DNA from: a virus
IMG/VR virus record: IMGVR_UViG_3300045988_128110
Location: 1-64,000 of that record
DNA: 64,000 bases
Strand: one strand, 5' to 3'
Shown: in pieces, positions 1 to 64,000 of the stretch
Layout: every line of letters begins with the position of its first letter
How positions within the stretch are numbered: the stretch's first letter is position 1
Notes under the pieces: generated by a model
Database searches by the model: none
What the model was told of the DNA's origin: nothing
The model's input: the letters and a program-made list of their open reading frames with translations, nothing else
Program-made: the position numbers and the translations under genes

Positions 1-48
1 CGAGATTACTACGCGTCTCGTGGGCTCGGAGATGTGTATAAGAGACAG
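1..48. other. Illumina Nextera i7 adapter remnant (CGAGAT + 8-nt index TACTACGC + GTCTCGTGGGCTCGG + Tn5 mosaic end AGATGTGTATAAGAGACAG); non-biological sequence at the contig terminus
   Basis: Exact match to the Nextera read-2 transposase adapter and mosaic-end sequence at positions 7-48, preceded by the P7 primer tail CGAGAT. Confidence 0.9.
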
Positions 49-107
49 TGTATATTCAGCGTTGAAAGTATGTAACAAGATTCGTGTGTTTAAGGTTAAG
101 TTTTAAT

Positions 108-329
108 ATGGAAGTATTTTGAATAACTGGTAGAGGAGCAATATTAAAAGTTTCTGACCGTAATAAAGAATATAAGGTTGGGGAATCTGTAGAGATTAAA
201 AATCGACTATATGAGATAACTGGAATTGAAGGTATGATGCTGTTAACAGAACCTCCTAAAAAAGTTACTGTAGGATTACGATTGAAAATGACTAAAGAAG
301 AGTATAATCAAATAATTTCTAAATTATAA
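108..329 (+). CDS. small hypothetical protein (73 aa) with an in-frame TGA at codon 5
   Basis: ATG at 108, open to TAA at 327-329 if TGA is read as Trp; no recognisable motif. Confidence 0.3.
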
Positions 330-337
330 TTTTACTG

Positions 338-408
338 GGCCATGTAGTGTAAAGGCGAGCACATTTCCTTTGCAAGGAAATAGAGGGGTTCGAATCCCAC
401 ATGTGTCC
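338..408 (+). tRNA. tRNA-like element, possibly degenerate tRNA-Ala (anticodon UGC)
   Basis: Good D-arm (gtgt/aaaggcga/gcac) and anticodon arm (tttcc-tttgcaa-ggaaa, anticodon TGC) and a GGTTCGAATCC T-loop, but the acceptor stem pairs poorly and the variable loop is only 3 nt. Confidence 0.35.
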
Positions 409-526
409 ACAATCTTCTATAAACTAGAGTTCTATATAGAAAGAGTACTGTAATCTGTTAAGGGCTTATAAATCAGACGTTAAAGAAAAAAGTCATCGGG
501 GCTGAAGAGCCCTGCTATGAACTTAA

Positions 527-551
527 TTCCAGTAGAAATACTGGAATTTTT
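527..551 (+). terminator. rho-independent terminator-like hairpin (ttccagta-gaaa-tactggaa followed by TTTTT)
   Basis: 8-bp perfect stem, GNRA-like loop, then a T5 run. Confidence 0.45.
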
Positions 552-715: not shown

Positions 716-1204
716 ATGACTTGGTATTTAATTTTATTAGTAATCTCTGCTTGTGTCTTAATTGGACAGACAGTCTTATCCTTTATTGGAGGAGAGATTG
801 ATGTTGATATGGATGCAGACTTAGATTCGAGTGACATGTTATCTTTTAAGGGTATTGTTCACTTTGTATTTGGATTTTCTCTAACATTAACTACAATGGG
901 AGGAGTTTCAGTACTATCTACTTTCGTAGCTGTTTTGGTGGGATTGTTATTTACTGTGATTCTGTTCTATCTTTACAGATACATATATAAACATCTTCGT
1001 CAAGAAATCATCTATCAAGATGAAATTAAGGATACTTCCGCACAGGTTTATTATTGGGACTCCGAGTTAAATAAAGGAGAGGTAGTAGTGAAGCTGGAAG
1101 GAAGATTAGTATATGTGGATGCAACATCTACAAAGAATGTTAACTATCAACCTGGAGAATCAGTTATAGTGGAAGGTACACGACATCAAGTAACAATTAA
1201 ATAA
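716..1204 (+). CDS. NfeD-like membrane protein (N-terminal TM helices plus C-terminal OB-fold), partner of the SPFH protein
   Basis: Hydrophobic N-terminus, C-terminal beta-rich soluble domain, sits immediately upstream of an SPFH/flotillin gene as in bacterial nfeD-SPFH operons. Confidence 0.5.
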   Translation: MTWYLILLVISACVLIGQTVLSFIGGEIDVDMDADLDSSDMLSFKGIVHFVFGFSLTLTTMGGVSVLSTFVAVLVGLLFTVILFYLYRYIYKHLRQEIIYQDEIKDTSAQVYYWDSELNKGEVVVKLEGRLVYVDATSTKNVNYQPGESVIVEGTRHQVTIK

Positions 1205-1211
1205 TTAAAAG

Positions 1212-2825
1212 ATGACTCTATTTATCATTCTCGGTGCAGCACTACTGTTAGTGTTGCTCTCAGTAGTGGGAATTCTCTCACGGTACAGAAAATGTCCTTC
1301 TGACAAGATTCTTGTAATCTTTGGTAAGACGGGGGGCGGAAAATCTGCTAAGTGCATCCATGGAGGAGCGGCTTTCGTGGTGCCTATCGTACAGGGTTAC
1401 AGTTTCATGTCACTTAAACCTTTGCAGTTTGAGTGTAATCTTCAGAAAGCTCTGTCTTCACAGAATATCCGAGTAGATGTTCCAACTACTGTGACTGTAG
1501 GTATTTCTACAGAACCTGAAGTAATGCAAATGGCTGCAGAGCGATTGCTTGGATTGACTACTGACCAGATTGAAGATCTCGTTAAGGATATTGTATATGG
1601 TCAGATGCGTCTAATTGTGTCTAATATGACCATTGAAGAGCTGAACTCTGAACGAGACAAGTTCCTGGAAGAAGTGAAGAATGTTGTTGGTGGAGAGCTC
1701 CGTAAGATTGGCCTGCATCTTATCAACGTCAACATCACTGATATCAGGGATGAAGCAGGTTATATCATCGCATTAGGCCAGAAGGACAAAGCAATTGCTC
1801 TTAATAAGGCAAATGTTGAAATCGCTAAGGCTGAAAAGGACGGTGCAACTCAAACTGCAGAGCAGAACAAAATTAAGAACTCTGAAGTTGCTGCAACTCA
1901 ACGTGAGGAAGCAGTTGCGGTCGCAGTGGCAAATGCTGAGCGAGATTCCAAGGTTGCAGAAACTCAGCGTACTCGTGATATCAATGTGGCAACTGCTAAA
2001 GCAGAAGGTGAGATTGGTAAAATCGAAGCTGAGAAGACTGTAACAAACAAGAATGCTGAGTTGGAAGTTGTGCGAGCAGATGCTGAAAAGGCTGCAAACA
2101 CAGCTCGTGTAAAGGCAGACGCTGAAGTCGCTAAGGAGAAAGAGCTTGCTCAGGTAGAGGTCGTTAAGGCTGAAGCAAAAGTGCTGCAAGAGCAGGAACT
2201 CGCTCAGAAGACTGCAGAAGAAGCTCGTGCTCAGCGTCAAGAAGCAGCCTTACGTGCTGATAAGATTGTACCTGCAGAAATTTCTAAGAAAGAGAGTCTG
2301 CTGCGTGCTGAAGCTTATCAGCTGGAACAGGAAAAAATCGCAGAAACCAATGCTAATAAGACTAAAATCGAAGCTGATGGTAAAGCGCAAGCTGAAGCTC
2401 TCAAGGGTGAAGGTGAGGCTAAAGCCATTACTGCTAAAGGTCTTGCTGAAGCAGAGGTTGTTCGTCAGAAAGGTTTGGCTCAGGCAGAAGCAGAGAAAGC
2501 TTCTCTTAAGGCTCAGGCAGATGGTTTCCGTGAGATGATCGAAGCTGCCAAAACTGATCCTGCGATTGCAATTCAGTTCAAGATGGTTCAAGAAGGAACC
2601 TACGAAAACATTGCTAAGCAACAGGTTGAGGCTTACAAGCACATGAACTTCGGTAATGTGACCATCATGGACACTACGAAGGGTGGAGGCCTCACAAATG
2701 TGATGCAGAGCCTTCTGTCTCAAGTATCCCCCATGCTGAATGTTATGAAAGAAATGAAAATTCCTGGAGTATCAAAGGCATTGGAAGAGAAAACTGAGGA
2801 TGCTAAATTTCCTGAAGTTAAATAA
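1212..2825 (+). CDS. SPFH/band-7 (flotillin-like) protein with a long Ala/Glu/Lys-rich coiled-coil repeat region
   Basis: N-terminal TM segment then a band-7 core, followed by an extended AEAKAxA low-complexity coiled coil; GC-richer, host-like codon usage; no in-frame TGA. Confidence 0.65.
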   Translation: MTLFIILGAALLLVLLSVVGILSRYRKCPSDKILVIFGKTGGGKSAKCIHGGAAFVVPIVQGYSFMSLKPLQFECNLQKALSSQNIRVDVPTTVTVGISTEPEVMQMAAERLLGLTTDQIEDLVKDIVYGQMRLIVSNMTIEELNSERDKFLEEVKNVVGGELRKIGLHLINVNITDIRDEAGYIIALGQKDKAIALNKANVEIAKAEKDGATQTAEQNKIKNSEVAATQREEAVAVAVANAERDSKVAETQRTRDINVATAKAEGEIGKIEAEKTVTNKNAELEVVRADAEKAANTARVKADAEVAKEKELAQVEVVKAEAKVLQEQELAQKTAEEARAQRQEAALRADKIVPAEISKKESLLRAEAYQLEQEKIAETNANKTKIEADGKAQAEALKGEGEAKAITAKGLAEAEVVRQKGLAQAEAEKASLKAQADGFREMIEAAKTDPAIAIQFKMVQEGTYENIAKQQVEAYKHMNFGNVTIMDTTKGGGLTNVMQSLLSQVSPMLNVMKEMKIPGVSKALEEKTEDAKFPEVK

Positions 2826-2843
2826 TTAACTTCTTTGATTTTT

Positions 2844-2869
2844 CTAGTGGGCTGAAATACGCCCACTAG
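2844..2869 (+). terminator. intrinsic terminator hairpin (ctagtgggc-tgaaatac-gcccactag)
   Basis: 9-bp perfect inverted repeat directly after the SPFH stop codon, followed by AT-rich sequence. Confidence 0.55.
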
Positions 2870-2885
2870 AATTTAACTTTATTTT

Positions 2886-3283
2886 ATGTTTTCACATTTA
2901 AAAAATTCTAAACTGCAAGGAAATGTTGGGATGGCATATGCTATCGCATTTTATTCAAAATTAGGGTGAATAGTATCTATTCCTATGACAGATTCTCAGG
3001 ACTACGATTTACTCGTAGATAATGGGAAAATATATTGAAGATTCAAGTTAAAACTACCACGCAGGTAGATAAAAGGACTGGAAATTTCCAAGTAGGATTG
3101 AGAACTTGTGGAGGAAATCGAAAGAATTATTGAGCTAAGACTTTCAATAATAACTCTAGTGATTTTCTATTTGTTGTAACTTCTTTCAAAGAATTTTATT
3201 CAATTCCAGTTAAAGAACTTGAAGGAATTAGAACATCAATTTCCTTATGTGGTAAATATGATAAATATAAAGTAGAGTTATAA
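2886..3283 (+). pseudogene. PD-(D/E)xK nuclease (Hjc/homing-endonuclease-like) disrupted by a 1-nt frameshift in an A4 run near 3027-3030
   Basis: Frame 0 encodes MFSHLKNSKLQGNVGMAYAIAFYSKLGWIVSIPMTDSQDYDLLVDNGK, then frame +2 continues (E)NILKIQVKTTTQVDKRTGNFQVGLRTCGGNRKNYW...KYDKYKVEL. The D..D...E/K-IQVKTT arrangement is the classic PD-(D/E)xK motif, and one extra A in gggaaaa restores a single ORF. Confidence 0.5.
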
Positions 3284-3286
3284 AAT

Positions 3287-3381
3287 CCCGACGTAACACC
3301 GTTTGACTGTAAATCAAATCCCCGTTAATAAATTGGTGTAGTGGACTCTGGGGTAGTGAGGTTCGAATCCTCACGGCGGGA
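3287..3381 (+). tRNA. atypical tRNA-like element; anticodon-like hairpin tttga-ctgtaaa-tcaaa (GUA) plus a canonical T-arm and a 3' acceptor strand; the structure is unresolved
   Basis: Perfect T-arm tgagg-ttcgaat-cctca; 5' cccgacg pairs 6/7 with 3' cggcggg; no normal D-arm can be placed; 95 nt long. Confidence 0.3.
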
Positions 3382-3396
3382 CTAATTTATATTGGT

Positions 3397-3867
3397 ATGA
3401 AAATTGTAGATAATTTTATATTCTTCTGGGGAGGTTGGTTAAGTAACTTTCATCCTTGTAGAATAGTATTTGGCTCTAAAGTTTTTAAATCATCTGAACA
3501 GCTTTTTATGTATCTTAAAGCTTTACATTTTGGTGATGTAGAAACAGCAGAGAAGATTCTATTAGCAGAGACTCCAAAGGAAGCTAAAAACCTTGGTAGG
3601 GAGGTTAGAAACTTTGATGAGAAATCCTGGAATGAGGTTAAGATTCAGAAAATGTATCTTGCCTTGGAAGGTAAGTTTAGCCAAAATAAAGACTTAATGG
3701 ATAAACTTAAAGACCCAGCATTAGACGGGAAATTCTTTGTTGAAGCATCTCCCTTTGATAGAATCTGGGGTATAGGCTATGATCAAGATCATGCACTTCA
3801 AAACCAATCAAATTGGGGAGAAAATCTACTTGGTAAGACTCTTACCTTTTACAGAGGATCTTTATAA
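3397..3867 (+). CDS. NADAR-domain (YbiA-like) protein, a putative ADP-ribose/NAD-derived N-glycosidase
   Basis: FFWGGWLSNF, a following SSEQ.FM..KA motif, EASP.D.IWGIG; these are the diagnostic NADAR (DUF1768) motifs. Confidence 0.7.
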   Translation: MKIVDNFIFFWGGWLSNFHPCRIVFGSKVFKSSEQLFMYLKALHFGDVETAEKILLAETPKEAKNLGREVRNFDEKSWNEVKIQKMYLALEGKFSQNKDLMDKLKDPALDGKFFVEASPFDRIWGIGYDQDHALQNQSNWGENLLGKTLTFYRGSL

Positions 3868-3924
3868 ACAATTTGCGGATATTGACATCGTTCAATATCC
3901 GCTTTATTTTTAAAACTTAATAAG

Positions 3925-5616
3925 ATGTTTGAAGCAAAAAAGAAAACATTATTTGCTGTTGATAACAGTAAATCGGCATCTAAATCAGCCTTTATTCAGG
4001 CAGGATTAAAAACTGCAGCAGAAACCACTACAGGTAACGGTGGCAAAGCCTATTCCAGTACAGGGGATCCCTTCGTTGACCAGTTTGGCAGTACATCTAA
4101 GTACAGAGAGATCCGCCCATTTGCAGAAATTGCAAAAGACTGTGAAATTCTCTGGGCAGAAAATAAAGAAGATACTGTTAAATTTATCTTTTTCTTGCGA
4201 ATGATTTGTCGTAAGATTAATGATAAAAAGTATGGTACCAAAGAAGCACAAAAGGGTTCTGAACTTCGTCATGAAGGTATTATGCGTCTCATCTGGCTAC
4301 ATACCAAAGATAAAGAAGTATTCTGGAAGAATGCTTGGCTGATTCCCTTGGTGGGTTCTTGGAAAGATCTCTTCGTTATGCTTCGTTATGACTTAGTTTA
4401 TAACGGCTGGGAACACCGAGTTCTGGATTGGCGTCGTTTTGCAGATCTGATTACTGCAGGTCTTGGCTCTGATTCTCAAACGAATCTCATTCGTAAGTAT
4501 CTTCCTCAGATCAAGGCACGTTCCAAGTGTACTACAGTAGAGGCACAAGCAAATTGTATGATTGCAAAATGGCTGTGTTCAGAACTTTACGGCGCGTCAG
4601 GAGTAAGGACAGATGCTGAAAAGTATCAAGTATATCGTTCTTATGCAAGGATGAAAGCTGCAGGAACAGCACATAGCTGGCAACAGCTTATTTCAAAGCA
4701 ACGATATACGGAGATTGACTTTGATAAGATTCATGGTCGTGCCTTAAACCTTCTTGTACATTCCAAGTTCTTAGAGAATCATAATCTCAAAGAGAAGTAT
4801 CAGGAATGGATAGGAGCTTCAGAGACAAAGGAGGTGAAGTACACAGGTTTCGTACATGAGCTCTTTAAACCTATTTGTAACACTGCTCCTCGTAATATAG
4901 AGCAGCATATCAAAGATACTATTAACAAGCAATTTATGACCCTTGTTAATAAGTGTAAGGAAGAGGGCAATACTACAGACCTTATCGTAGTACGTGATAC
5001 TTCTGGTTCAATGGGTGCAGAAGCAACTGGAACTTCCATGTCTTGCTACAATGTAGGTAAGGCAATTGCTCTGTATTTCTCTTATTTCTTAAGAGGGAGA
5101 TTCCAAAATGCATGGATTGAGTTTAACTCAAAAGCTATGATGCATGAGTGGAAAGGAGAAACTCCTCTGGAGAAATGGTTTAATGACCATTCGGGGTACT
5201 ATGGAAGTACAAACTTTGAGGGTGTTATTAACCTCTTTGCTCAGTTGAAGCTTGAAGGTGTTCCAGAAGAGGAATTTCCTAAAGGAATTCTTTGTATCAG
5301 TGATTGTGAGTTTGATGCTTCAAGTCTGAATAAGACTTCAGTTGAAAGAGTCCATGATACATTGACAGCTGCAGGATTTTCTAAAGAGTATGTTGACAAT
5401 TTTGTCATTTGCCTTTGGAATTTGAGAAATGATTACTACGGAGATACTGCGCAGAATCGCACTCCATTCCAAACTTATGGTGATGTCAAGAATGTCTACT
5501 ACATGTCTGGATATTCAGCACAGATTGTATCTTTCTTAAATGGAAAGGTACAGACTACACGGGATCTGTTTGATGAGGCTATGAATCAAGAGATTCTGTC
5601 TCTCATTAAGATGTAA
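3925..5616 (+). CDS. large hypothetical protein (563 aa) with a C-terminal vWA-like domain (VVRDTSGSM)
   Basis: DxSGSM MIDAS-like motif at about residue 345; no other recognisable domain. Confidence 0.45.
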   Translation: MFEAKKKTLFAVDNSKSASKSAFIQAGLKTAAETTTGNGGKAYSSTGDPFVDQFGSTSKYREIRPFAEIAKDCEILWAENKEDTVKFIFFLRMICRKINDKKYGTKEAQKGSELRHEGIMRLIWLHTKDKEVFWKNAWLIPLVGSWKDLFVMLRYDLVYNGWEHRVLDWRRFADLITAGLGSDSQTNLIRKYLPQIKARSKCTTVEAQANCMIAKWLCSELYGASGVRTDAEKYQVYRSYARMKAAGTAHSWQQLISKQRYTEIDFDKIHGRALNLLVHSKFLENHNLKEKYQEWIGASETKEVKYTGFVHELFKPICNTAPRNIEQHIKDTINKQFMTLVNKCKEEGNTTDLIVVRDTSGSMGAEATGTSMSCYNVGKAIALYFSYFLRGRFQNAWIEFNSKAMMHEWKGETPLEKWFNDHSGYYGSTNFEGVINLFAQLKLEGVPEEEFPKGILCISDCEFDASSLNKTSVERVHDTLTAAGFSKEYVDNFVICLWNLRNDYYGDTAQNRTPFQTYGDVKNVYYMSGYSAQIVSFLNGKVQTTRDLFDEAMNQEILSLIKM

Positions 5617-5624
5617 ACTCAATA

Positions 5625-5653
5625 GGCTCTAGTAGAAGTACTAGAGCCTTTTT
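5625..5653 (+). terminator. strong rho-independent terminator (ggctctagta-gaag-tactagagcc followed by TTTTT)
   Basis: 10-bp perfect stem, 4-nt loop, T5 run, 9 nt after the stop of the preceding gene. Confidence 0.75.
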
Positions 5654-5799
5654 ATTAATAATCTAATTATGGGTAAGTACCTTAAAGATTATCAAATTCC
5701 TGATTATTGTGAGGAGGATAAACCTAGAATGCCAAAACGGCCTAAGAAGTTTAAAGACCAAGAGGGAGGAAAACCTTTAGTAAAGAAAAAGTTCAAGCG

Positions 5800-6102
5800 A
5801 TGAAGAGATGATTCTTAAGAATATTTAGAAGGTTTAATGAACCATCAACTGATAGTTCAAAAGAATTTCCTAAAAAAGTAATTGACTTAGAACAATTTGA
5901 CGATGTATTTATAATTACTAATAAAAAGGTATATAAGGCCTGGGTTATGAAAAGAACCAGTAGACTTCTACAGATTTTTATTTGGGAGTCTAAAAAGGAG
6001 GTAATTATAAATACAATTGGACAAGCTAATTCTAGTGTTATTCCTTTTGGCAAGGATAGCTATTTAATTATAAATAAAAAAGATATATGCGATTACTTGT
6101 AG
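5800..6102 (+). CDS. hypothetical protein (100 aa) with one in-frame TGA; overlaps the pncA-like start
   Basis: ATG at 5800, open to TAG at 6100-6102 with TGA read as Trp; it competes with a minus-strand shadow ORF 5793-6053. Confidence 0.25.
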
Positions 6103-6668
6103 TAGTTGATATGCAAGAAGACTTCATCAGAGGTGCATTAACGGTTCCTGGTGCTGAAGAAATAATTTCTCCTATAGAGAGATTAGTTAAAGAGTATATA
6201 ACAGCAGATGATGCTGTTCTTTTTACTCGGGATACTCATTATGAGCATAGTGATACTAGGGGATTTGGCTACGCTATGACTCGTGAAGGTAGAAATCTTC
6301 CAATTCTTCATTGCGTTTGTGGAACTGAAGGTCATAAGCTTATTAAGGAGTTTAAGCCTTATCTTCGTTCCTGCTATGTAATGGATAAACTAAATAGGTT
6401 TGGATTTATCCAGGATGAGTTTAATGATGCTAAGACAGGTGATGGAGAATATTTATTCGACATCGCTGATTGCATTACAGAAATTACTTTGGTTGGTGTA
6501 GTAACTAATCTTTGTGTTATTTCATGTGCTGTAAGTTTTCAGCAAACATTCCCTGATGCAGATATCATCATAGATGCTTCCTGCTGTCGTTCTAATAATA
6601 ATGAACTTCATAACAAAGCTTTAGATGTTATGGAGGGTTTACAAATGACTATAATTAATCGTTATTAA
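6087..6668 (+). CDS. pncA: isochorismatase-family hydrolase, probably a nicotinamidase (PncA-like)
   Basis: N-terminal LLVVVDMQ.DF motif of the isochorismatase/nicotinamidase family; located next to nadV and nadE. Confidence 0.6.
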   Translation: MRLLVVVDMQEDFIRGALTVPGAEEIISPIERLVKEYITADDAVLFTRDTHYEHSDTRGFGYAMTREGRNLPILHCVCGTEGHKLIKEFKPYLRSCYVMDKLNRFGFIQDEFNDAKTGDGEYLFDIADCITEITLVGVVTNLCVISCAVSFQQTFPDADIIIDASCCRSNNNELHNKALDVMEGLQMTIINRY

Positions 6669-6669
6669 T

Positions 6670-8154
6670 ATGTTTAAACCTTGTGGAGCTCTACTGACTG
6701 ATTTTTATAAACAATGTCATGCAGAGCAATATGACCCTAGCATCACTAAGGTAGTTTCTTACTATGTACCTCGTAAAACTAGGATTCCTGAATTTGATAA
6801 GGTAGTAGTTTTTGGTATTCAAGCATTTATTGAGGAGTATCTGATTGAATACATGAATGAAACTTTCTTTAGTCGTTCTTTAGAAGAAGTTATTGCAGAA
6901 TATGAATTTGTAATTTCTTCTACTATGGGAGCAGACCGTGTTAATTCGGATAAAATTAAAAAGCTTCATGAGTTAGGATATCTTCCTATCGAGATCTGGG
7001 CACTTCCTGAGGGATATAAAGTAGGAATGAATGTCCCCTGTATCGAGATTTCTAATACTAATCCAGAATTTGCATGGTGTACTAATTTCATTGAAACCTT
7101 GATGCTCTCTGAGCTTTGGTATCCAATGTGTGTTGCAACTGCTGTAACTAAATATCGTAGTATCGTAAATGATTTTTATTCTAAAACTTCTGATATTTCT
7201 GGTCGTTCTGCTATTTCTGAGTTCGGATTTAGAAGTTTAGTTGGACTTCATGGCGCTATTAAAGCTTCATGTGGGTTTTTGCTCTCTTTTAATAAGACTG
7301 CGACTATTCCTGGCATTATATATGCTTCAAAGTATTATCATACCCCAATGTCTGTAGTAGGTGGAGGTATGGCTTCTACTGAGCACTCCGTAATGTGTAG
7401 TTCTGCTGCCATTGATGGGGATGAAAAAGTTATGATTCGACGCCTCCTTACTGAGGTCTACCCTAATGGATCATTCTCTATGGTAAGTGATTCCTATGAT
7501 TACTGGAATATTGTCGATGAAATTCTCCCATCTCTTAAGGAAGAAATTCTCAGTAGAAACGGCACTTTGTATGTTCGTGGTGACTCTGGAGATCCTGTAG
7601 AAATTGTAACTGAGACAGTTTTCTCTCTTTGGGAGACTTTTGGAGGTACTGTCAACTCTAAAGGGTATAAAGTCTTAGATCCTCATGTTCGAGCTTTGTA
7701 TGGTGATGGTATCACTCAGTTACGTGCAAAACAGATTTATCAGATTTTGTACGATACGGGATTCTCTGCAGAAAATGTTGCACTTGGTGCAGGAGGATTT
7801 TCTATGCTTTCTTACATGGACGAGTTTGGAAATGTCGATATGTTCTCTCGTGATACATTTAATGTAGCAATTAAGTGTAGCTATGTAGAACAAACCATTG
7901 ATGGAAAAACTAAATCTATTATGGTTTACAAAGATCCTAAAACAGATTCAGGAATGAAGAAGTCCCATAAAGGATGCTGTGCTGTTTTCTACAACCATGT
8001 AACTGGTGAGTTTGATTGTGATGAGGGTATGACACTGAAAGAAGCTCATAATGAGCCTTTTAATTTACTTCGTCCTATCTTTTCAAATGGAAAAATGAGA
8101 GAGCAAACCACTCTCACAGAAATTCGTAGAACTCTTTGGAACGGAGAATTTTAA
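6670..8154 (+). CDS. nadV: nicotinamide phosphoribosyltransferase (NAMPT/NadV)
   Basis: LLTDFYKQCH N-terminus and the overall length and motifs of type II NAPRT/NAMPT. Confidence 0.75.
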   Translation: MFKPCGALLTDFYKQCHAEQYDPSITKVVSYYVPRKTRIPEFDKVVVFGIQAFIEEYLIEYMNETFFSRSLEEVIAEYEFVISSTMGADRVNSDKIKKLHELGYLPIEIWALPEGYKVGMNVPCIEISNTNPEFAWCTNFIETLMLSELWYPMCVATAVTKYRSIVNDFYSKTSDISGRSAISEFGFRSLVGLHGAIKASCGFLLSFNKTATIPGIIYASKYYHTPMSVVGGGMASTEHSVMCSSAAIDGDEKVMIRRLLTEVYPNGSFSMVSDSYDYWNIVDEILPSLKEEILSRNGTLYVRGDSGDPVEIVTETVFSLWETFGGTVNSKGYKVLDPHVRALYGDGITQLRAKQIYQILYDTGFSAENVALGAGGFSMLSYMDEFGNVDMFSRDTFNVAIKCSYVEQTIDGKTKSIMVYKDPKTDSGMKKSHKGCCAVFYNHVTGEFDCDEGMTLKEAHNEPFNLLRPIFSNGKMREQTTLTEIRRTLWNGEF

Positions 8155-8948: not shown

Positions 8949-8949
8949 T

Positions 8950-12074: not shown

Positions 12075-12080
12075 CTTTAC

Positions 12081-12102
12081 AGGCGGAGTAAATCCGCCTT
12101 TT
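12081..12102 (+). terminator. rho-independent terminator (aggcgga-gtaaa-tccgcct followed by TTTT)
   Basis: 7-bp GC-rich stem plus a T run, 7 nt after the stop codon. Confidence 0.75.
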
Positions 12103-12174: not shown

Positions 12175-12191
12175 CAAATATTATTAATGCT

Positions 12192-12512: not shown

Positions 12513-12520
12513 TTTATTTT

Positions 12521-14027: not shown

Positions 14028-14037
14028 TTAAAGGTTT

Positions 14038-53953: not shown

Positions 53954-54468
53954 TGAGGTCGTTTTCTAAAGAAGAAATTCAGGCACTCAAAGAAAACAAG
54001 GAAGTTTTATATTTTTATAAGCTTCCTTGTTCTTTATTTGATTCTGGATTTCAATATATTATTGTTACTGATGCTCTAGAACCTCCTGAAAAATATGATA
54101 ATGTAAAATATCTTTCTTCTCAGTGTTGGTTTCAAAGAATGCAAAATGGGAGTTTACTCCCAATAGTTTGCACATCACTTGGAAAATCCTATAAGATAAA
54201 AGAATATGTATCTGTCTATGTAAAGCCAGATATTATAAAGCTTAGAAAATTACTGGAAAACAGTTTATTAGGAGCTTGTAAATATCCTTGAAGTTTATCT
54301 GATGATGAAATTATACAAGAATCTTTATGGGGAATCCAAGTAATTAAAGAGGGAAGAGTGAATAGAATTGATGTATTTAAATCAATTTATAAGGTGACTG
54401 AAGCTTTTAGTGAATTTTTAGAAGTATCTGCACCAATGTATCAAATGTGGAGGGAGAATAATGAGTAA
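53953..54468 (+). CDS. hypothetical protein (171 aa); one TGA
   Basis: The tracked ORF ends at a TGA and continues to TAA at 54466-54468. Confidence 0.35.
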
Positions 54469-56352: not shown

Positions 56353-58344
56353 ATGATATACTTAGTCACTAACGCTCCAGCCTTAATAAAACCCACTAAA
56401 TATACTTGTATTTCTGTTAAAGAAGCTTTAAGTATGTTGGAAAGGTTAAAGATTGTTGGTGTGGATACTGAAACTGAGGGTTTCGATGTCTATACTAAAA
56501 AACTGTTATCTCTTCAGCTAGGATGCTTTGATTTTCAGGTAGTTATTGATTGTACAACAGTTAATGTTTTGTTATTTAAAGATTATCTTGAATCTGAGCG
56601 ATTATTTCTTTTTTGAAATGCAAAATTTGACTTAAAATTTTTATACTACTATGGAATTATTCCAAGATATGTATGGGATGGGTATCTTGCAGAGAAGCTT
56701 ATGTGGCTCGGATATCCTTCTGGTATGCATGGAATGGGTCTTAAAGATGCAGGAATAAATTATCTTGGAGTAGAACTGGATAAGACTGTTCGAGGTCAAA
56801 TTATAAATAAGGGTTTAACAGAAGATGTTATAGTTTATGCTGGAACAGATGTTAAATACCTAGAACCTATAATGGAGAAGCAAAAAGAAAAACTTAAAGA
56901 ACAAGGACTTCTTGATGCTATCCGTGTTGAAAACACATTTGTTAGATGTTTAGCTTATATTGAATTCTGTGGAGCTAAAATTGATCCAGAGAAATGGAAA
57001 AAGAAACTGGAGAATGATTCTAACTTATGTGAAGATTTAATCTGTCAACTCAATAAATGAGTTGAAGATAATATGGGAGGTAAGTATACAACTGTAAATA
57101 GACAAGGTGATCTGTTTGATGGATTTGATACTCGTCCCAGATGTCATATTAATTGAAAGAGTGCACAACAAGTGATTCCTCTTTTTGAAGATCTTGGTTT
57201 AAATCTTTCAGTAATTGATCCTAAGACCAAACGTCCAAAAAAGTCTACTGATATTAAAGTTATAGGACCGCAAGCTTCTAAAAGTCCATTAATTTCTATA
57301 TTTATGGAGTATAAGAAAGCTGCGATTTTAGTAGATACCTTCGGAGAAAAGTTTTTAGATCTTATAAATCCAAAGACTAAACGCATTCATGCTAATTTTA
57401 ACCAGTTAGGCACTGATACAGGCCGATTGAGTTCAACTAATCCGAATCTTCAAAATCTCCCAAGTGATGCTTTAACACGTTCTTGTTTCATTGCAGAGCC
57501 AGGCAATAAATGGATTTCAGCTGACTATTCTGGCCAAGAAAGTTTTTTAATGGCATCCATTGCCAATGATAAAGCTATGCTTGACGAATTAGTGAATGGT
57601 TCAGGAGACTTACATAGCCTAACTGCTAAAATGGTATTCCTTGAAATTCCAAGAGACACTCCACTTAAAGCAATTAAAACAGAGTATCATCATCTAAGAA
57701 AAGAAGCAAAGGGCTATGAATTCTGTTTTAATTATGGAGGAATGGATAATACTCTTGTTAGAAATTATGGAATTTCTGAAGAGCGGGCCAAAGAAATCTA
57801 TACTAACTACATGGAGGGTTTCTCAGGACTGAGAGACTATCAAAAGTTTAGAAGAAAGGATGTAATGGAAAAAGGATATATACTTTTAAGTCCAATTACT
57901 GGGCATAAAGCATATATCTATGACTTTGCTGAACTTAAACGCCTCTGGAAAAAACAATGTGAGAAAGGATTCTGGGAGTATTATAGAGAAATGAAACGAG
58001 ATGCCCCAGATTGTGAAACTGTACAAAATGTTAGAAAATTAGCAAAAAGACGTGCAGAGTCCGAGAAACAGTCAATCAACTACCCTATTCAGGCCGCTGG
58101 CGCCCTTACATTCAAGTATGCGTCTATTTTTCTATTTAAATATTTACAGGAACATAATTTATTGTTTAAAGTAAAGTATTGTATACCTGTGCACGATGAA
58201 ATTAATCTTGAGGCTCCTGCGGAGATTGCAGAAGAGATAGGAAAAGTTCTTGTACAATGTATGGAGAAGGCTGGTGCAGTATTTTGTAAAAGAGCTAAGC
58301 TTAGTGCTGATTTGACTATTGGAGATTATTGGATACATGAATAA
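56353..58344 (+). CDS. polA: family A DNA polymerase (Pol I-like, with 3'-5' exonuclease domain); three tracked ORFs joined by three TGA codons
   Basis: Exo motifs VGVDTETEG and NAKFDLKFL; motif A DYSGQE; KEAKGYEFCFNYGG; motif C VHDEI; ORFs 56353-56616, 56701-57060 and 57172-58344 are in one frame with only TGAs between them. Confidence 0.85.
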
Positions 58345-58352: not shown

Positions 58353-58613
58353 ATGATAAAATTAATTAAATTTGGAGCATCATGGTGCGGTCCTTGCCGT
58401 GCCATGATGCCTATTCTTGAAGAACTCAAAAATAAAATAGAAATAGAAGATATTGATGTGGATGAAGTGGATCCTATTGTGTTAACTAACTATAAAATTA
58501 GAAATATTCCTGTACTTATTTTACTACAGGATAATAAGGAAGTTTGGAGGCATGTAGGAAGTATTTCTAAAGTAGAATTAGAAGATAAAATTAAAGAATA
58601 TGAGGCTAATTAA
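58353..58613 (+). CDS. trx: thioredoxin
   Basis: WCGPC active site. Confidence 0.8.
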   Translation: MIKLIKFGASWCGPCRAMMPILEELKNKIEIEDIDVDEVDPIVLTNYKIRNIPVLILLQDNKEVWRHVGSISKVELEDKIKEYEAN

Positions 58614-59690: not shown

Positions 59691-59981
59691 ATGACTAGAT
59701 TAGAATTTTCAGAAATGTATCCCTACGCTGTAGATGGTTCCAGAAGAAGTGCAATTTTTGGAGAAAAGAGAGCACTTCTTGTTAAAATTTTACAGCAAGG
59801 ATCCCCAATATATCAAGATACTTTTTATTATGGTCATGCAGAAAAATCAGACCATTTTAAGGAAGTAACAGTTGATGATATTGATAGTATAGCTGGATGG
59901 AGAGATTGCCATTATTACACTCTATATACAGATAGACAAGGTAATAGTGCTTGGATTTTATCAGGAGGAAGATACGATTAA
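59691..59981 (+). CDS. hypothetical protein (96 aa)
   Basis: Complete ORF. Confidence 0.3.
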   Translation: MTRLEFSEMYPYAVDGSRRSAIFGEKRALLVKILQQGSPIYQDTFYYGHAEKSDHFKEVTVDDIDSIAGWRDCHYYTLYTDRQGNSAWILSGGRYD

Positions 59982-59998
59982 TATGGAGATAAATAAAT

Positions 59999-61120
59999 AT
60001 GGATCTGATTAAAGCTTGTAAACAACTTGTAGTTAAAGATCCTTTTTATGGTTTATTTCTATTATCTTTAAATAAATATTATTCTAAAGATGATGCAACA
60101 GCATGAGTTACAAGAAACGGGATTAACTATGAATTATGTGTTAATCCCGATTTTTGAAATACTTTAACTGATGACGAACAGTTAGGAATATTAAAACATG
60201 AGCTGTTGCATATTGCATTTAAACATTTGTTAATGCAAGAATCTTTTAATGATAAAAAAGTATTTAATATTGCCGCTGACGCAGAAGTAAATCAATATAT
60301 TGATGTTCTTCCAAAAGATGCTATTGATATCAAAGATATTGATCCCATGCTTCCCCCGAAAGCAGGAACCAAATACTATTATGAATACCTTTATAAAGAT
60401 AAGAAAGACTCTTCTGGGGGGCCGAAAAACCATAATCACTGAAAGGATTTTTCTGATTTATCAGATGCAGAAAAAACTTTAATTAACAATCAAACTGACC
60501 ACATTGTAAAACAGGTTGCAACTCAAGTAATTAAATCTAGAGGAACTATTCCTTCCGAGCTAAAAGCATATGTGGATAAATTGTTTAAAATAAAACCTTC
60601 TATATTTAACTGGAAGGCCTATTTTAGACGACTTTTAGGATTTGCTATTGATGTCTTTGTAAAAAAGACACATCGCAAAGTATCTAAACGGTTTGAGGGA
60701 GCTGCGGGTATTAAACTAAAACATAAACATGATATTTTAGTTGCTATTGATACCTCTGGTTCTGTTAGTACTAAGGAGTTAAAAGATTTTATTAGTGAGA
60801 TTTATCACATCTGGAAAGCTGGGGCAGGTGTTGATGTAATTGAGTGCGACGCTAGAATACATAGGATATATCCATTCAAAGGGACTTTTGATGGTACATT
60901 CACTGGTAGAGGAGGTACAGACTTCAAACCTGTTATTGACTACTACAATCAATGTAGAAAACAATACTCTACTTTAGTATTCTTTACAGATGGCTATGCA
61001 CCTACAGATACTTTTAAAGTAATGAAGCAGATGATCTGGGTAATTACCTCTAATGGTAATAGAAATAATCATTATCCAGGTTACAGTATGTTTATCCCAT
61101 CTGATAATGGAGCTGAATAA
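59999..61120 (+). CDS. vWA-domain protein with an N-terminal HExxH putative metallopeptidase domain (DUF2201-like, MoxR-associated); three in-frame TGA
   Basis: ILKHELLHIAFKH (HExxH), VAIDTSGSV MIDAS motif; ATG at 59999 lies 69 codons upstream of tracked ORF 60206; ORFs 60206-60442 and 60572-61120 are TGA-joined. Confidence 0.6.
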
Positions 61121-62318
61121 AGTTAATTTAGAAGAATTTAAAACTATATTTCAATATATTATTGAGAATAACAAACGTTTAGTGGAAGTTGGAAAAATTC
61201 CCACTGCAATCTCATTGGAAGCCGATTCAGGAATTGGAAAGACTTCTACAATTTTACAAATAGCTGAAGAACTGAATATGGGATTCATCAAATTGAATCT
61301 TTCTCAGTGTGAAGAATTGGGTGACCTAATTGGATTCCCCATAAAAGAGTATTATGTATGTTCTGATGAAGGTGAATGTCAATGAGTTTCAAGTGATTTG
61401 CTGGCATACTATCTTCAAAATGGATACAAGGTTCAGAACTTAACTCGAATGTCTTATGCGCCCCCTACGTGGATGCCGAAAGAGGATAATGAAAATGGAT
61501 GTATACTTCTTCTTGATGACTATTCAAGAGCACTTCCTATGTTCTTGCAGGCAACTATGGAGCTTATTGATAGAGGTGAATATATTTCTTGGAAACTTCC
61601 AAAGAACTGTACTATAGTATTAACTTCTAATCCTGATAATGGAGACTATAATGTTAGTACTATGGATAATGCTCAGAAAACTCGATATATTAACTTTGAA
61701 ATTGATTTTGATGTTAATGTATGGGCACGTTGGGCTGAAACTGACAAATTAGATTCCAGAGCTATTAACTTTGCATTATTATATCCTGAAATATTTGAAA
61801 AAGAGGGAAATGTGCAGAAGATTAATCCAAGAAGTTATGTTACCTTCTGTAATGCTATTTCTGGTTTAAAGGATTGGAGCACCTCAGCAAATCTAGCAAT
61901 GATTCTTAATATTGCTAAAGGATGTTTTACATCTAAAGAAAATATTGTTGGAAACTTATTTACTACGTTTATTGCTAATAAACTGGATAAGCTAATTGCT
62001 CCTAAAGATATGCTGTTTGAACCTTGGGATACTGTAAAAACTAAAATTAAAAGTTGTGTATATGATAGTAATGGATATCGTCCAGATATAGCTTCTGTAT
62101 TATCTACACGATTACTTAATTATAGTCTTTTATATTTCGGAGAAAAGGGAGCTAAAACGGAAGTAGTTCAAGATCGATTACTTGAATTTATCAATTCTCC
62201 TGAACCTTTACTAACTGAAGACTTATTGTTTCATTTAATTAAAACGATTACTACAAAGTTTTCAGGAAGGGCAAATAAGTTAATTATGAATCCTAAAATC
62301 AGAGCTAAAATTTTATAA
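61107..62318 (+). CDS. MoxR-like AAA+ ATPase; one in-frame TGA
   Basis: Walker A DSGIGKTST, Walker B LLLDD; ORFs 61053-61385 and 61398-62318 are TGA-joined; likely start ATG at 61107. Confidence 0.65.
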
Positions 62319-62319
62319 T

Positions 62320-63372
62320 ATGAAATTAAACGGAATTAATATTGCATTTCTCGTTCCTTATAGGAGAAATAGTGGGTCAGCAAATTTATGTAAATGGTCT
62401 TCATATCATTCAGAAAATATACATTTTCCAGTTAGAACTTCAATGGTGCTACATACCCCTGAAGAAGTAAATACTGCGCTAACTAATAAACTTACAGATC
62501 TATCGGATGTAACTAAGCTATATTTTGACTCTAGTTCAACCTATCCACGGTTCAAAATTAGGGATACAAAATTTCAAAGAGTTATTAAGGTAGCAAGATG
62601 TGATGCTGCTATAATTCCAGATTCTCTTAACTATTATCCTAGTAGTGGAGAGTATTATTTATTTGAATATGTTAAAGAGGATCAAACTAAAATAATTTAT
62701 AGTATTTGTCCAAAATTGTTTAAAGATAGTGATTCATTTATTTATAATGATGTTTGCTCTCAGGGAACAGACTTTATAGATGGCGTCAAAACTATAAATA
62801 CCTTACCTAAAGGTTCCACTTTGATTTACAGTGGAAAGTTAGTATTTTGTGATGAAACCTATGTAGAAATAATTAATAACATAGTTTCTGTATATCCAAA
62901 ATATGCAAAAGAAAGTACTCTAGATAAACTAGTTAATGGCACATTGGAAAAGATTACCGAAGAAAGTATCTTGTCATTAAATGATATGCTAGCATCAACC
63001 GATAATACTACTGTGGAACTGGGATTAAAAATTTTACAAGGAATGAATGTTACAGAAAGCCCTGCTGCAGTAACATGTTTATTATATGGGAATTTCGATA
63101 ATATATCTAAGAATAAAGCCATGGGAACAACAGGAGTATCTCAAGTTTTTAAGTCCTTAAATGTAAATACAAGATATGCTCCTTATGATCCCATTACTGG
63201 AATAGCTAAAGCGTTAGAGTCAAACACTTGGAAAAATGCAACATCTGAGGATAAATCTTTAACATATACTTTATGTAGGGGTATCCTTTCTAATTTTTAT
63301 AGAGAAAAAGATAGACAAGTTATGGATACTCTTCATAACCTCCCATTTAAAATCAAAACATATGTCGACTAG
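62320..63372 (+). CDS. hypothetical protein (350 aa) downstream of the MoxR/vWA pair
   Basis: Complete ORF ending in TAG. Confidence 0.35.
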   Translation: MKLNGINIAFLVPYRRNSGSANLCKWSSYHSENIHFPVRTSMVLHTPEEVNTALTNKLTDLSDVTKLYFDSSSTYPRFKIRDTKFQRVIKVARCDAAIIPDSLNYYPSSGEYYLFEYVKEDQTKIIYSICPKLFKDSDSFIYNDVCSQGTDFIDGVKTINTLPKGSTLIYSGKLVFCDETYVEIINNIVSVYPKYAKESTLDKLVNGTLEKITEESILSLNDMLASTDNTTVELGLKILQGMNVTESPAAVTCLLYGNFDNISKNKAMGTTGVSQVFKSLNVNTRYAPYDPITGIAKALESNTWKNATSEDKSLTYTLCRGILSNFYREKDRQVMDTLHNLPFKIKTYVD

Positions 63373-64000
63373 AAATATTTTATGTATAGCTGGTTTAAAG
63401 GGGAGTGGTAAGGATGAGAGTGCTAAAATGCTTCAATTTTGTTTGAATTCTCCAAGATGAATGCAAACATATTGAATGTATAAACATTGTAATATCTTTA
63501 CAGAGGGAAAGTTTAAGATTTGTAGATTTGCTGATACTTTAAAATGTCTTCTTTCAATACTCCTTAATGTTAGTGTTGAAAGATTTGAAGATAGACAATT
63601 TAAAGAGGACTATTACGTAGATTTCAGTACTTTAACAATTCATCATAAGAATTTTGTAGAAAGAGAAAAAATTCTAGTAGATAATAAGTTTTCAAAGTTA
63701 GCCAAGGATCTTAATCCTTCTTTAACTGAAGATTACTGACTTTCTATTAGGCAGGTTTTGCAATACTTTGGAACTGAAATAATGAGATATTATTTTGGGG
63801 ATAAATTATGGATTTTAACTACATATGAGCAAGAGTGCAAAAATATGATTATCTCAGATCTGCGATTCCAGATTGAATTTGAAGAATCAAAGAAACGAGG
63901 AGGGAAAGTTATTTATATCCATAGACCAGAGTGTAAGGCAGGCTCCCATGCCTCAGAAAGAGAGCTTTTAACGTTATATGGAAATGGAGACTATGACTAT
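63362..64000 (+). CDS. dNMP kinase-like P-loop protein (T4 gp1-like), truncated by the window end; several TGA
   Basis: GLKGSGKDES P-loop; ATG at 63362 is in frame with tracked ORF 63476-63739 (38 codons) and continues through TGAs to position 64000. Confidence 0.5.

What the first reader, a model, noticed from the sequence alone, without database searches (positions are those of the whole stretch)
1..64000. TGA is reassigned to tryptophan (code 4) across the whole window
Many annotated genes are broken in the standard-code ORF track only at TGA. Where family knowledge allows, the TGAs sit on invariant Trp positions: RNase H DLW and WVKGH (24241-24330), SF2 helicase LKEQ-W and NG-W-LSP (28480-28810), dUTPase, ligase, PolA, primase. 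TGG is still used for Trp (thioredoxin WCGPC). Genes terminate at TAA or TAG. A Gly reading (code 25) does not fit the aligned positions. Recoding this extensive, together with a dedicated suppressor tRNA, means every protein prediction here must use table 4. It places this phage among stop-codon-recoded phages.
Basis: partly seen in the sequence, partly recalled or inferred. Interest (0 to 1): 0.85.

Follow-up and report, generated by a model that had tools for sequence, protein, structure and literature searches.

The report
TGA-to-tryptophan recoding in crAss-like phage
This phage fragment reads the stop codon TGA as tryptophan in about 40% of its genes, so it must be translated with table 4; that is already well known for this group of gut phages, but its TGA-reading tRNA has an unusual shape worth a closer look.

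Summary
Reading TGA as sense raises + strand ORF coverage from 0.82 to 0.94. It restores full-length RNase H, XPB-like helicase, DnaB, primase, dUTPase, ligase, PolA and others. There are 64 in-frame TGAs in 32 of 83 ORFs, and 48 are clearly mid-gene. All ORFs end in TAA (70) or TAG (13).

The amino acid is tryptophan. In 151 related IMG/VR loci the commonest sense codon at these sites is TGG (109 of 225 distinct contexts; Gly 3). Standard-code crAss001 and cr111_1 have W at the PolA and kinase sites.

Two claims are overstated. Only some TGAs sit on invariant Trp positions. A 16-kb tRNA/NAD-salvage block (716-16579) has almost no TGA, in the window or in relatives.

The 'dedicated suppressor tRNA' (17604-17694, anticodon UCA) is real DNA but structurally deviant, and Rfam's tRNA model misses it. 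Relatives carry at the same locus a clean tRNA-Trp-like UCA tRNA split by an intron-like insert.

The window is a crAss-like, probably Zeta-group, phage. TGA->Trp recoding with suppressor tRNAs is already published for that group, so the main finding is correct but known.

The possibly new part is that these UCA tRNAs carry a co-varying extra arm that copies the tRNA-Trp CCA anticodon loop.

The parts
716..16579 (+). TGA-poor block of 21 ORFs plus 6 of the window's tRNA genes. It holds an NAD-salvage module: NADAR, nicotinamidase, NAMPT and NAD synthase. It is compatible with both table 11 and table 4.
   Evidence: The block has 2 TGA against 70 TGG; the rest of the window has 62 against 169. 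Orthologues in relatives have almost no TGA: none among the large genes up to 10934, and up to 9-25% TGA only in three small ORFs. Functions come; tRNAs.
17604..17694 (+). Putative opal-suppressor tRNA (anticodon UCA; loop CUUCAAA). It is 91 nt long, with a deviant D arm, the T loop AUCGUUA and a long extra arm whose loop contains UCCA.
   Evidence: ARAGORN calls it and its MFE fold is a cloverleaf. Rfam gives no hit at E<=10. It is identical in 16 loci. Two contigs (L064/L071 and L065) show the compensatory change G26-C36 -> A26-U36. It shares G1.U72, C2-G71, C4-G69, C5-G68, G73 and the anticodon-loop flanks with the phage tRNA-Trp(CCA).
17710..18294 (+). Free-standing HTH + HNH endonuclease gene immediately downstream of the tRNA(UCA). 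It has 3 TGA and 0 TGG. It is present or absent together with the window-type tRNA.
   Evidence: Weak Pfam HNH_4/HNH_5/HTH_23 matches, E about 1e-4 and below the curated cutoffs. Relatives have TGA:TGG = 60:2. Cassette presence or absence is shown.
23970..24413 (+). RNase H with TGAs at 23982, 24261 and 24309.
   Evidence: Pfam RNase_H 8-140/141. 24261 aligns with the W of DLW in all four aligned solved RNases H. 24309 aligns with W (E. coli), K or F. 23982 aligns with Y or F.
28319..29539 (+). XPB/Rad25-like SF2 helicase with TGAs at 28358, 28391, 28508, 28586, 28787 and 28928.
   Evidence: Pfam ResIII/Helicase_C/DEAD. 28508 aligns with the W of 'LITQW' in XPBII. 28787 aligns with H or Y in solved structures, but relatives carry TGG at both 28508 and 28787.
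30204..34306 (+). DnaB-like helicase (TGA 30864), AAA_24 ATPase (TGA 31684), two TGA-free ORFs, and a Toprim primase (TGAs 33680, 33884, 34157).
   Evidence: Pfam. Relatives carry TGG at 31684 and 33680, and TTT at 34157.
27960..27962 (+). A window-specific TGA where every relative has CGA (Arg). It is a C->T change that is a missense (R->W) under table 4.
42426..42923 (+). ORF of unknown function whose Trp codons are all TGA (4 TGA, 0 TGG).
   Evidence: relatives have TGA:TGG = 71:0. Replacements are Tyr codons.
46576..47115 (+). dUTPase with one TGA (46930) in a non-conserved insert.
   Evidence: Pfam. Relatives mostly have TTT at this site.
48564..49730 (+). ATP-dependent DNA ligase with 5 TGAs (48630, 48678, 49095, 49119, 49605).
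   Evidence: Pfam DNA_ligase_A_M 1-204/204. Relatives carry TGG at 4 of the 5 sites. Solved ligases have A or Y at 49119.
54461..55360 (+). Kinase/phosphatase-like gene with TGA at 54593.
   Evidence: All 26 distinct relative contexts have TGG. crAss001 has W in 'GKYWVPSRE'.
56353..58344 (+). Family A DNA polymerase with TGAs at 56614, 57058 and 57154.
   Evidence: Pfam. cr111_1 has W at all three sites. crAss001 has W at two of them. The distant apicoplast polymerase has Q and V at 56614 and 57154.
58353..58613 (+). Thioredoxin. The W of WCGPC is TGG (58383-58385), which shows TGG is still used for Trp.
59999..62318 (+). DUF2201 metallopeptidase/VWA protein (TGAs 60104, 60155, 60440) and an AAA ATPase (TGA 61383).
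   Evidence: Pfam. Relatives carry TGG at 60155, 60440 and 61383.

Best explanation
The window is part of the replication and auxiliary-gene arm of a large crAss-like phage, probably Zeta-group, with relatives up to about 180-190 kb. In this phage UGA is a tryptophan codon and only UAA and UAG terminate.

Shown:
- TGA interrupts otherwise full-length conserved genes.
- It interchanges freely with TGG among relatives.
- It aligns with Trp in standard-code homologues.
- It is never needed as a terminator.

Inferred:
- The host is a standard-code Bacteroidota bacterium.
- UGA is decoded by a phage-encoded tRNA with anticodon UCA (17604-17694). This tRNA derives from tRNA-Trp and is charged by the host TrpRS, out-competing RF2.
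- The TGA-free tRNA/NAD-salvage block can be translated before the suppressor accumulates. TGA-containing genes (replication and others) depend on it. TGA content would then act as a gene-specific expression gate, as proposed for other recoded phages.
For: ORF statistics come and full-length Pfam matches across TGAs.

Codon table over 151 related loci, deduplicated by context:
- At window TGA sites, relatives have TGA 351, Trp 109, Phe 18, Tyr 15, Leu 15 and Gly 3.
- At window TGG sites, relatives have TGG 2006 and TGA 164, which is the top alternative.

Of the 37 sites that have a sense codon in some relative, 21 have TGG. BLOSUM62 sums are W 1036, Y 248 and F 126.

W is present at the PolA and kinase sites in cultured, standard-code Bacteroides phage crAss001 and in cr111_1. 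TGA aligns with the invariant W of RNase H DLW and with the helicase QW. There is no special +4 context. Stops are TAA 70 and TAG 13.

TGA use is gene-specific and conserved, with a TGA-free block.

For the tRNA(UCA), all 18 relatives that cover the locus carry a UCA tRNA-like gene there: 11 have the window type, 1 has the window type with an insert, and 6 have a canonical tRNA-Trp-like form split by an insert. One compensatory change occurs in the anticodon stem. A more distant relative (L188) has an intronless long tRNA(UCA) scoring 57 bits with the Rfam tRNA model.

crAss-like placement rests on PolA and primase hits and on synteny. Published precedent: PMC7886860, 10.1101/2021.08.26.457843 and PMC12386605.
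Against: There is no protein-level evidence. The amino acid is inferred from conservation only.

The window's own tRNA(UCA) is not recognised by Rfam's tRNA or tRNA-Sec models, and its fold energy is not exceptional (z = -0.8). Its 100% identity across contigs could reflect recent spread with the adjacent HNH gene rather than selection.

The canonical allele in relatives has G3.U70, the classical AlaRS determinant, and a long extra arm, which is a class II, Ser-like feature. Charging specificity is therefore not certain from sequence.

Host and timing of expression are not observed. Unlike the published 'late genes only' pattern, TGAs here sit in replication genes.

Two TGAs (28308 and 55989) lie 3-5 codons before a TAA and could still be stops.
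Confidence: 0.9

Rival explanations
1. The phage infects a host that itself uses table 4 (a Mollicutes-like or endosymbiont-like host). On this view TGA = Trp simply mirrors the host code, and no phage-imposed switch or gating exists.
For: TGA is a sense codon and never a stop. The genome is AT-rich at 33% GC.
Against: The replication genes and their order are crAss-like. The closest cultured relative grows on Bacteroides, which uses the standard code.

A 16-kb block and many single genes avoid TGA completely, and they do so in relatives as well. That is not expected if TGA were a free synonym from the start of infection.

The phage carries its own UCA tRNA as well as a tRNA-Trp(CCA).
Confidence: 0.04
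2. TGA is decoded as an amino acid other than Trp, set by the identity elements of the suppressor tRNA. Candidates are Gly (table 25), Ala (via G3.U70 in the canonical allele), Ser (via the long extra arm) or Sec/Cys.
For: ARAGORN labels the tRNA 'SeC'. The tRNA has a long extra arm. The allele in six relatives has G3.U70. Ala codons occur at a few orthologous sites, 11 of 225 contexts, mainly at 60104.
Against: Orthologous residues are W 109, G 3, S 4, C 4 and A 11. The BLOSUM sum favours W by a wide margin. W is invariant at the RNase H and helicase sites and in standard-code crAss PolA. There is no Rfam tRNA-Sec match at 17604. The window's own allele has G3-C70, not G3.U70.
Confidence: 0.04
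3. TGA is still a stop. On this view the broken genes are pseudogenes, assembly errors, or are rescued only by low-level read-through.
For: One TGA (27960) is a window-specific C->T change from CGA.
Against: There are 48 clearly mid-gene TGAs in essential replication genes. They are conserved as TGA across many independent contigs and interchange with TGG. No gene needs TGA as its terminator. There is no read-through context.
Confidence: 0.01

Closest known systems
Zeta-group crAss-like phages with TGA->Trp reassignment (Yutin et al. 2021, PMC7886860; phage Lera, Babkin et al. 2025, PMC12386605)
   Same: - Human-associated, with genomes of about 145-192 kb (relatives' contigs here reach up to about 180-190 kb).
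- A tRNA block at one end of the genome.
- tRNA-SUP-TCA, and in relatives a CTA tRNA.
- Table 4 is needed to restore conserved genes.
- Many homing endonucleases and introns.
- A crAss-type replication module.
   Different: No GenBank phage record matches the window at megablast level. TerL and MCP lie outside the window, so group membership is not proven. Here TGAs are frequent in replication genes, whereas the papers stress late and structural genes. The shape of the suppressor tRNA is not described in those papers.
TGA-recoded Agate/Jade phages and the 'recoding gates late genes' model (Borges et al., 10.1101/2021.08.26.457843)
   Same: A standard-code host is inferred. A suppressor tRNA(UCA) is present. 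Recoding is partial, with standard-code-compatible blocks. Those authors also note that suppressor tRNAs go undetected in about 65% of code-4 genomes.
   Different: This is a different phage lineage. The window contains no RF1 or TrpRS gene. The TGA-free genes here are auxiliary and tRNA-block genes rather than the replication genes.
Table 4 in Mollicutes and some endosymbionts
   Same: UGA = Trp is read by a tRNA-Trp with anticodon UCA. UGG is still used.
   Different: There the whole cell is recoded and RF2 is lost. Here the reassignment is carried by a virus, and part of the genome avoids the codon.
Table 25 (UGA = Gly) phages of Absconditabacteria and Gracilibacteria
   Same: In-frame TGA occurs in phage genes.
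   Different: Gly is almost never found at orthologous positions here (3 of 225 contexts).
Class II tRNAs (Ser, Leu, Tyr, Sec) and allo-tRNAs with unusual cloverleaves (Mukai et al., PMC5389517)
   Same: A long extra arm lies between the anticodon and T arms. ARAGORN files such UCA tRNAs as 'SeC'.
   Different: The acceptor/T geometry is 7/5. The body of the tRNA is tRNA-Trp-like (A1-U72 or G1.U72, G73). The extra arm carries a conserved NUCCAAA loop, a copy of the Trp anticodon loop. I did not find this described in the papers searched.

Membership tests
Stop-codon-recoded phage using table 4 (TGA = Trp) | In-frame TGAs in conserved genes; full-length homologues are restored when TGA is read as sense | tested here: met
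Stop-codon-recoded phage using table 4 (TGA = Trp) | TGA positions correspond to Trp in homologues | tested here: met
   for two invariant Trp sites. Not every site is a conserved Trp.
Stop-codon-recoded phage using table 4 (TGA = Trp) | TGA is not used as a terminator; genes end in TAA or TAG | tested here: met
   (TAA 70, TAG 13). Two TGAs lie 3-5 codons before a TAA and remain ambiguous.
Stop-codon-recoded phage using table 4 (TGA = Trp) | Phage-encoded suppressor tRNA with anticodon UCA | tested here: inconclusive
   A tRNA-like gene is called by ARAGORN at 17604-17694. It is conserved and shows one compensatory pair. Rfam's models miss it. Clean tRNA(UCA) alleles sit at the same locus in relatives.
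Stop-codon-recoded phage using table 4 (TGA = Trp) | Trp actually incorporated at UGA (proteomics or aminoacylation) | not testable with these tools
   This needs mass spectrometry or biochemistry.
Stop-codon-recoded phage using table 4 (TGA = Trp) | Host uses the standard code, so the recoding is imposed by the phage | tested here: inconclusive
   The host is not identified. It is inferred from crAss-like affiliation and from conserved TGA-free genes.
Table 25 (TGA = Gly) phages | TGA aligns with Gly in homologues | tested here: not met
   Gly appears in 3 of 225 orthologous contexts.
Selenocysteine decoding | tRNA-Sec (Rfam RF01852) is present and TGA aligns with Cys or Sec | tested here: not met
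   There is no RF01852 match at 17604. Cys appears in 4 of 225 contexts. SECIS elements were not searched.
crAss-like phages (Crassvirales), Zeta-like | crAss-type replication module (DnaB, ATPase, primase, RNR, dUTPase, PolA, thioredoxin, ThyX) with crAss-like best hits | tested here: met
crAss-like phages (Crassvirales), Zeta-like | TerL/MCP/portal phylogeny within the Zeta group | not tested
   The structural genes lie outside the window and outside the fetched flanks.
Group I intron in a tRNA anticodon loop (the inserts in relatives' tRNA(UCA)) | Insertion in the anticodon loop after a U, last base G, and a homing-endonuclease ORF inside | tested here: met
   the insert lies between U34 and C35, ends in G, and holds a PD-(D/E)xK or HNH ORF.
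Group I intron in a tRNA anticodon loop (the inserts in relatives' tRNA(UCA)) | Recognisable group I catalytic core (Rfam RF00028) | tested here: not met
   There is no match at E<=1 in L052 or at E<=10 in L047. I therefore call it intron-like only.

The most novel reading that the evidence does not exclude
The opal-suppressor tRNAs of these phages belong to a widespread, apparently undescribed family of tRNA-Trp-derived UCA tRNAs of 93-97 nt. In this family the anticodon arm looks tandemly duplicated. The first copy reads UGA (loop CUUCAAA). The second copy persists as a co-varying extra arm that displays the wild-type Trp anticodon loop (NUCCAAA, with UCCA invariant).

The extra arm may keep recognition by host TrpRS, which reads C34-C35-A36. 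Alternatively it may act as a decoy for anticodon-directed host factors.

The gene is also a hot spot for intron-like inserts and homing endonucleases. This would explain why suppressor tRNAs go 'missing' in many recoded phage genomes.
Probability: 0.3. Interest if true: 0.7.

Novelty: already known. Interest (0 to 1): 0.33.

Why it matters
Practically, any annotation of this window with table 11 truncates or splits about 40% of its genes, including the polymerase, primase, helicases and ligase. Table 4 must be used.

Biologically, it adds one more lineage to a published picture: crAss-like and other gut phages that reassign UGA to Trp and carry suppressor tRNAs. By itself it is not surprising.

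Two details may matter more:
1. TGA avoidance is sharply gene-specific and conserved. It is absent from the tRNA/NAD-salvage block and exclusive in some small genes. This gives a concrete gene list for testing the 'recoding as expression gate' idea.
2. The suppressor tRNA exists in deviant and intron-split forms that standard tRNA finders miss. It carries an extra arm that mimics the Trp anticodon loop, which may bear on how a host synthetase is made to charge a stop-codon reader.

Tried and rejected
- Megablast of 24 kb against GenBank phages found no match.
- A look-up of phage Lera (PV725988) failed because it is not in the collection.
- Rfam at gathering and at E<=10 did not find the window's tRNA(UCA).
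- Rfam did not find a group I core in the inserts of L052 or L047. I therefore do not file the inserts as group I introns.
- The fold z-score of the tRNA region is unremarkable.
- A pattern scan for variants of the window-type tRNA found only the same clade, with no extra variation.
- ORF-coverage tests on loci carrying the long-arm tRNAs were uneven and not decisive for whether those phages are all TGA-recoded.
- The distant solved structures of PolA and ligase do not have Trp at the TGA sites. 'Invariant Trp' is therefore rejected for those, although crAss-like PolAs do have W.
- Gly, Sec/Cys, pseudogene and read-through readings were considered and rejected.
- The large protein-database searches, structure prediction, and the genome and metagenome scans were not used. 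The codon-level comparison already settled the question.

Full report
**Observation**

The window has 33% GC and all its genes lie on the + strand. With the standard code, ORFs of at least 60 aa cover 0.82 of the + strand. Treating TGA as sense raises this to 0.94, and ORFs of at least 200 aa rise from 24 to 37. Treating TAG as sense gains almost nothing.

I listed 83 table-4 ORFs (gene list fixed). They contain 64 in-frame TGAs in 32 ORFs. Of these:
- 48 are unambiguously internal.
- 14 lie near the 5' end, where a later start codon is possible.
- 2 (28308 and 55989) lie 3-5 codons before a TAA.

Every ORF ends in TAA (70) or TAG (13). In-frame TGA is ten times rarer than off-frame TGA (0.33 against 3.53 per 100 codons). 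Counting TGA as Trp brings Trp content from 1.22% to a normal 1.55%.

Pfam profiles run through the TGAs from end to end for RNase H, an XPB-like helicase, DnaB_C, AAA_24, Toprim, dUTPase, ATP-dependent ligase, PolA with its exonuclease, and DUF2201. The thioredoxin WCGPC tryptophan is TGG at 58383.

**Which amino acid**

I fetched 151 related loci from IMG/VR with four TGA-free anchor proteins. For every window codon I read the orthologous codon, counting each distinct 93-nt context once.
- At window TGA sites, relatives have TGA 351 times, TGG 109, Phe 18, Tyr 15, Leu 15, Ala 11, Glu 11, Arg 8 and Gly only 3.
- At window TGG sites, the commonest alternative is TGA (164), ahead of Tyr (99).

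Of the 37 TGA sites with a sense codon in some relative, 21 have TGG, and W is the top alternative at 17. A BLOSUM62 sum gives W 1036, Y 248 and F 126.

Independent standard-code references agree. Cultured Bacteroides phage crAss001 and cr111_1 have W at the PolA sites (RLFLFWNAKFD, INWxS; cr111_1 also NSWVE) and at the kinase site GKYWVPSRE. In solved structures the RNase H TGA at 24261 is the W of DLW in all four aligned homologues. The helicase TGA at 28508 is the W of LITQW in XPBII.

Not all sites are conserved Trp:
- RNase H 24309 is W, K or F.
- Helicase 28787 is H or Y in solved homologues.
- The apicoplast polymerase has Q and V at two PolA sites (56614 and 57154).
- Ligase 49119 is A or Y.
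- The dUTPase site is mostly Phe in relatives.

The base after TGA has the same distribution as after TGG. One TGA (27960) is CGA in every relative, a C->T change that is only a missense under table 4.

**Distribution**

TGA use is not uniform. ORFs from 716 to 16579 have 2 TGA against 70 TGG. Both TGAs are in small ORFs, one of which is a truncated PD-(D/E)xK endonuclease. The rest of the window has 62 against 169 (Fisher p = 1.7e-6).

This block holds six tRNA genes and an NAD-salvage set: NADAR, nicotinamidase, NAMPT and NAD synthase. It also has a cREC receiver-domain gene and an MgtC gene.

The pattern is conserved. Orthologues of the large genes in this block have no TGA among several hundred Trp codons. 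By contrast, some genes use TGA almost exclusively: 17710-18294 at 60:2, 26172-26522 at 40:0, 34260-34655 at 27:0 and 42426-42923 at 71:0.

In an AT-rich genome where TGA and TGG otherwise interchange freely, such conserved avoidance implies selection. The simplest reading is that these genes must be translatable while UGA still terminates.

**The suppressor tRNA**

ARAGORN calls a 91-nt 'tRNA-SeC(tca)' at 17604-17694. It exactly fills the gap between two ORFs. It has 61.5% GC in a 33% GC genome and a canonical anticodon stem-loop (CUUCAAA).

Its D arm is odd, its T loop is AUCGUUA and it has a long extra arm. Rfam's tRNA and tRNA-Sec models do not find it even at E<=10.

It is identical in 16 related loci. 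Two contigs carry a G26-C36 to A26-U36 double change that keeps the anticodon stem paired. It shares G1.U72, C2-G71, C4-G69, C5-G68, G73 and the loop flanks with the phages' own tRNA-Trp(CCA), which lies just upstream of the window in relatives.

Six relatives lack this tRNA and the adjacent HNH gene (17710-18294). At the same place they have AGGGGTGTAGTGTAATGGTAGCACAGCGGTCTT, then a 640-660-nt insert, then CAAAACCGT...GGGTTCGAGTCC...CTCTG. Joined at U34|C35, this gives a clean cloverleaf with anticodon UCA, A1-U72 or G1.U72, and G73. From my own recollection of the E. coli tRNA-Trp sequence, the 5' half is very similar to it; no tool tested this.

One relative (L052) has the window-type tRNA split at the same position. 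The inserts follow a U, end in G and carry a PD-(D/E)xK or HNH ORF that itself contains TGA. But no group I core is detected, so I call them intron-like.

All 18 relatives covering the locus therefore carry a UCA tRNA gene in one form or another.

**A wider tRNA family (beyond the finding)**

The 17-mer of the canonical anticodon arm occurs in 32 IMG/VR contigs from many metagenomes. About 20 of them carry 93-99-nt tRNA(UCA) genes. Rfam's tRNA model scores intronless members at 57-62 bits, with the UCA arm as the anticodon arm. One of these (L188) is on a 76%-identical relative of this phage.

In an alignment of 17 such sequences, 97% of cells pair. The extra arm shows changes on both sides at 4 of 5 pairs. 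Its loop is NUCCAAA, with UCCA invariant, including in the window's tRNA.

The part from the extra arm to the 3' end matches ordinary annotated tRNA-Trp genes of unrelated phages. No GenBank phage record covers the whole molecule. The simplest origin is a tandem duplication of the tRNA-Trp anticodon arm, with C34->U in the first copy.

I found no description of this in the papers searched. Its function is unknown. Keeping TrpRS recognition is my leading guess, and it is only a guess.

**Placement and precedent**

PolA is 64.6% identical to cr111_1 and 54.5% to crAss001. The primase hits only crAss-like, Bacteroides and Flavobacterium phages. Gene order matches the crAss001 replication module. 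Relatives' contigs reach about 180-190 kb and come from human-associated samples.

This fits the Zeta group of crAss-like phages. For that group TGA->Trp or TAG->Gln reassignment, suppressor tRNAs, dense introns and 145-192-kb genomes were reported in 2021 (PMC7886860) and again in 2025 (PMC12386605). The general phenomenon, and the idea that recoding gates expression, are in Borges et al..

Those papers also note that suppressor tRNAs are often not detected. The deviant and split forms seen here offer one concrete reason.

**Mechanism: shown and inferred**

Shown:
- TGA is a sense codon equivalent to TGG.
- TGA is not used as a stop.
- A UCA tRNA-like gene is universally present at one locus.
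- TGA use is gene-specific.

Inferred:
- The host uses the standard code.
- Host TrpRS charges the tRNA.
- The tRNA competes with RF2.
- TGA-free genes are translated early, before TGA-containing genes.

**Verdict**

The interest lies mainly in the side observation on the tRNA.

Noticed in passing
L047 5492-6190; L050, L053, L054, L057, L061 (same locus); L052 5336-6026: In 7 of 18 relatives the tRNA(UCA) gene is split between U34 and C35 by a 600-660-nt insert. The insert ends in G and carries a PD-(D/E)xK endonuclease ORF (an HNH ORF in L050) with in-frame TGA. It is intron-like, but Rfam detects no group I core.
   Followed up: partly
L172 290-382, L193 1374-1467, L188 6850-6942 and about 17 other loci among L165-L196; window 17604-17694: A family of 93-97-nt phage tRNA(UCA) genes has a tRNA-Trp-like body. 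A co-varying extra arm carries the loop NUCCAAA, which copies the Trp anticodon loop, and UCCA is invariant. It looks like a tandem duplication of the anticodon arm. No full-length match exists in 50,697 GenBank phage records.
   Followed up: partly
window 17604-18294 versus L047/L050/L053/L054/L057/L061: The window-type tRNA(UCA) and the downstream HNH endonuclease gene are present or absent together. They stay 98-100% identical where flanking genes are only 60-90% identical. This suggests a mobile cassette that competes with the intron-bearing allele.
   Followed up: partly
window 27960-27962: A TGA in the window where all relatives have CGA (Arg). It is a recent C->T change that would be a nonsense mutation under the standard code.
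   Followed up: yes
window 3397-8948 (also 9840-11731): An NAD-salvage module sits inside the TGA-free block: NADAR domain, isochorismatase-type nicotinamidase, NAMPT and NAD synthase.
   Followed up: partly
window 3035-3283: A truncated PD-(D/E)xK (PDDEXK_5) endonuclease ORF with an in-frame TGA. It is of the same kind as the ORFs inside the tRNA inserts and is possibly a decayed homing endonuclease.
   Followed up: no
L066, L067, L072, L073, L074, L076, L077 (upstream of the window start): ARAGORN calls an 81-nt 'tRNA-Pyl(cta)' with weak stems. It is probably the amber-type suppressor tRNA reported for Zeta crAss-like phages, although no in-frame TAG use was evident in this window. A normal tRNA-Trp(CCA) lies in the same upstream block.
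   Followed up: no
L013 10001-13213, L037 10001-13020, L045 and L046: The ribonucleotide reductase gene is about 340-970 nt longer in some relatives than in the window (43653-45896). This suggests an intein or intron insertion.
   Followed up: no
window 23970-24036: The RNase H ORF must start at or before 23970, because its catalytic TDGS motif follows immediately. It therefore overlaps the preceding conserved ORF (23623-24036) by 67 nt.
   Followed up: no
window 28308 and 55989: Two conserved TGAs lie only 3-5 codons before the TAA of their ORFs. It cannot be decided whether they are Trp codons or residual stops.
   Followed up: partly
L193 714-1153: A tmRNA gene (Rfam 77 bits) lies next to a tRNA cluster on an unrelated 127-kb phage contig that also carries a long-arm tRNA(UCA).
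   Followed up: no
window 15422-16579: A cREC_REC receiver-domain protein and an MgtC-family membrane protein are encoded in the phage's TGA-free block.
   Followed up: no
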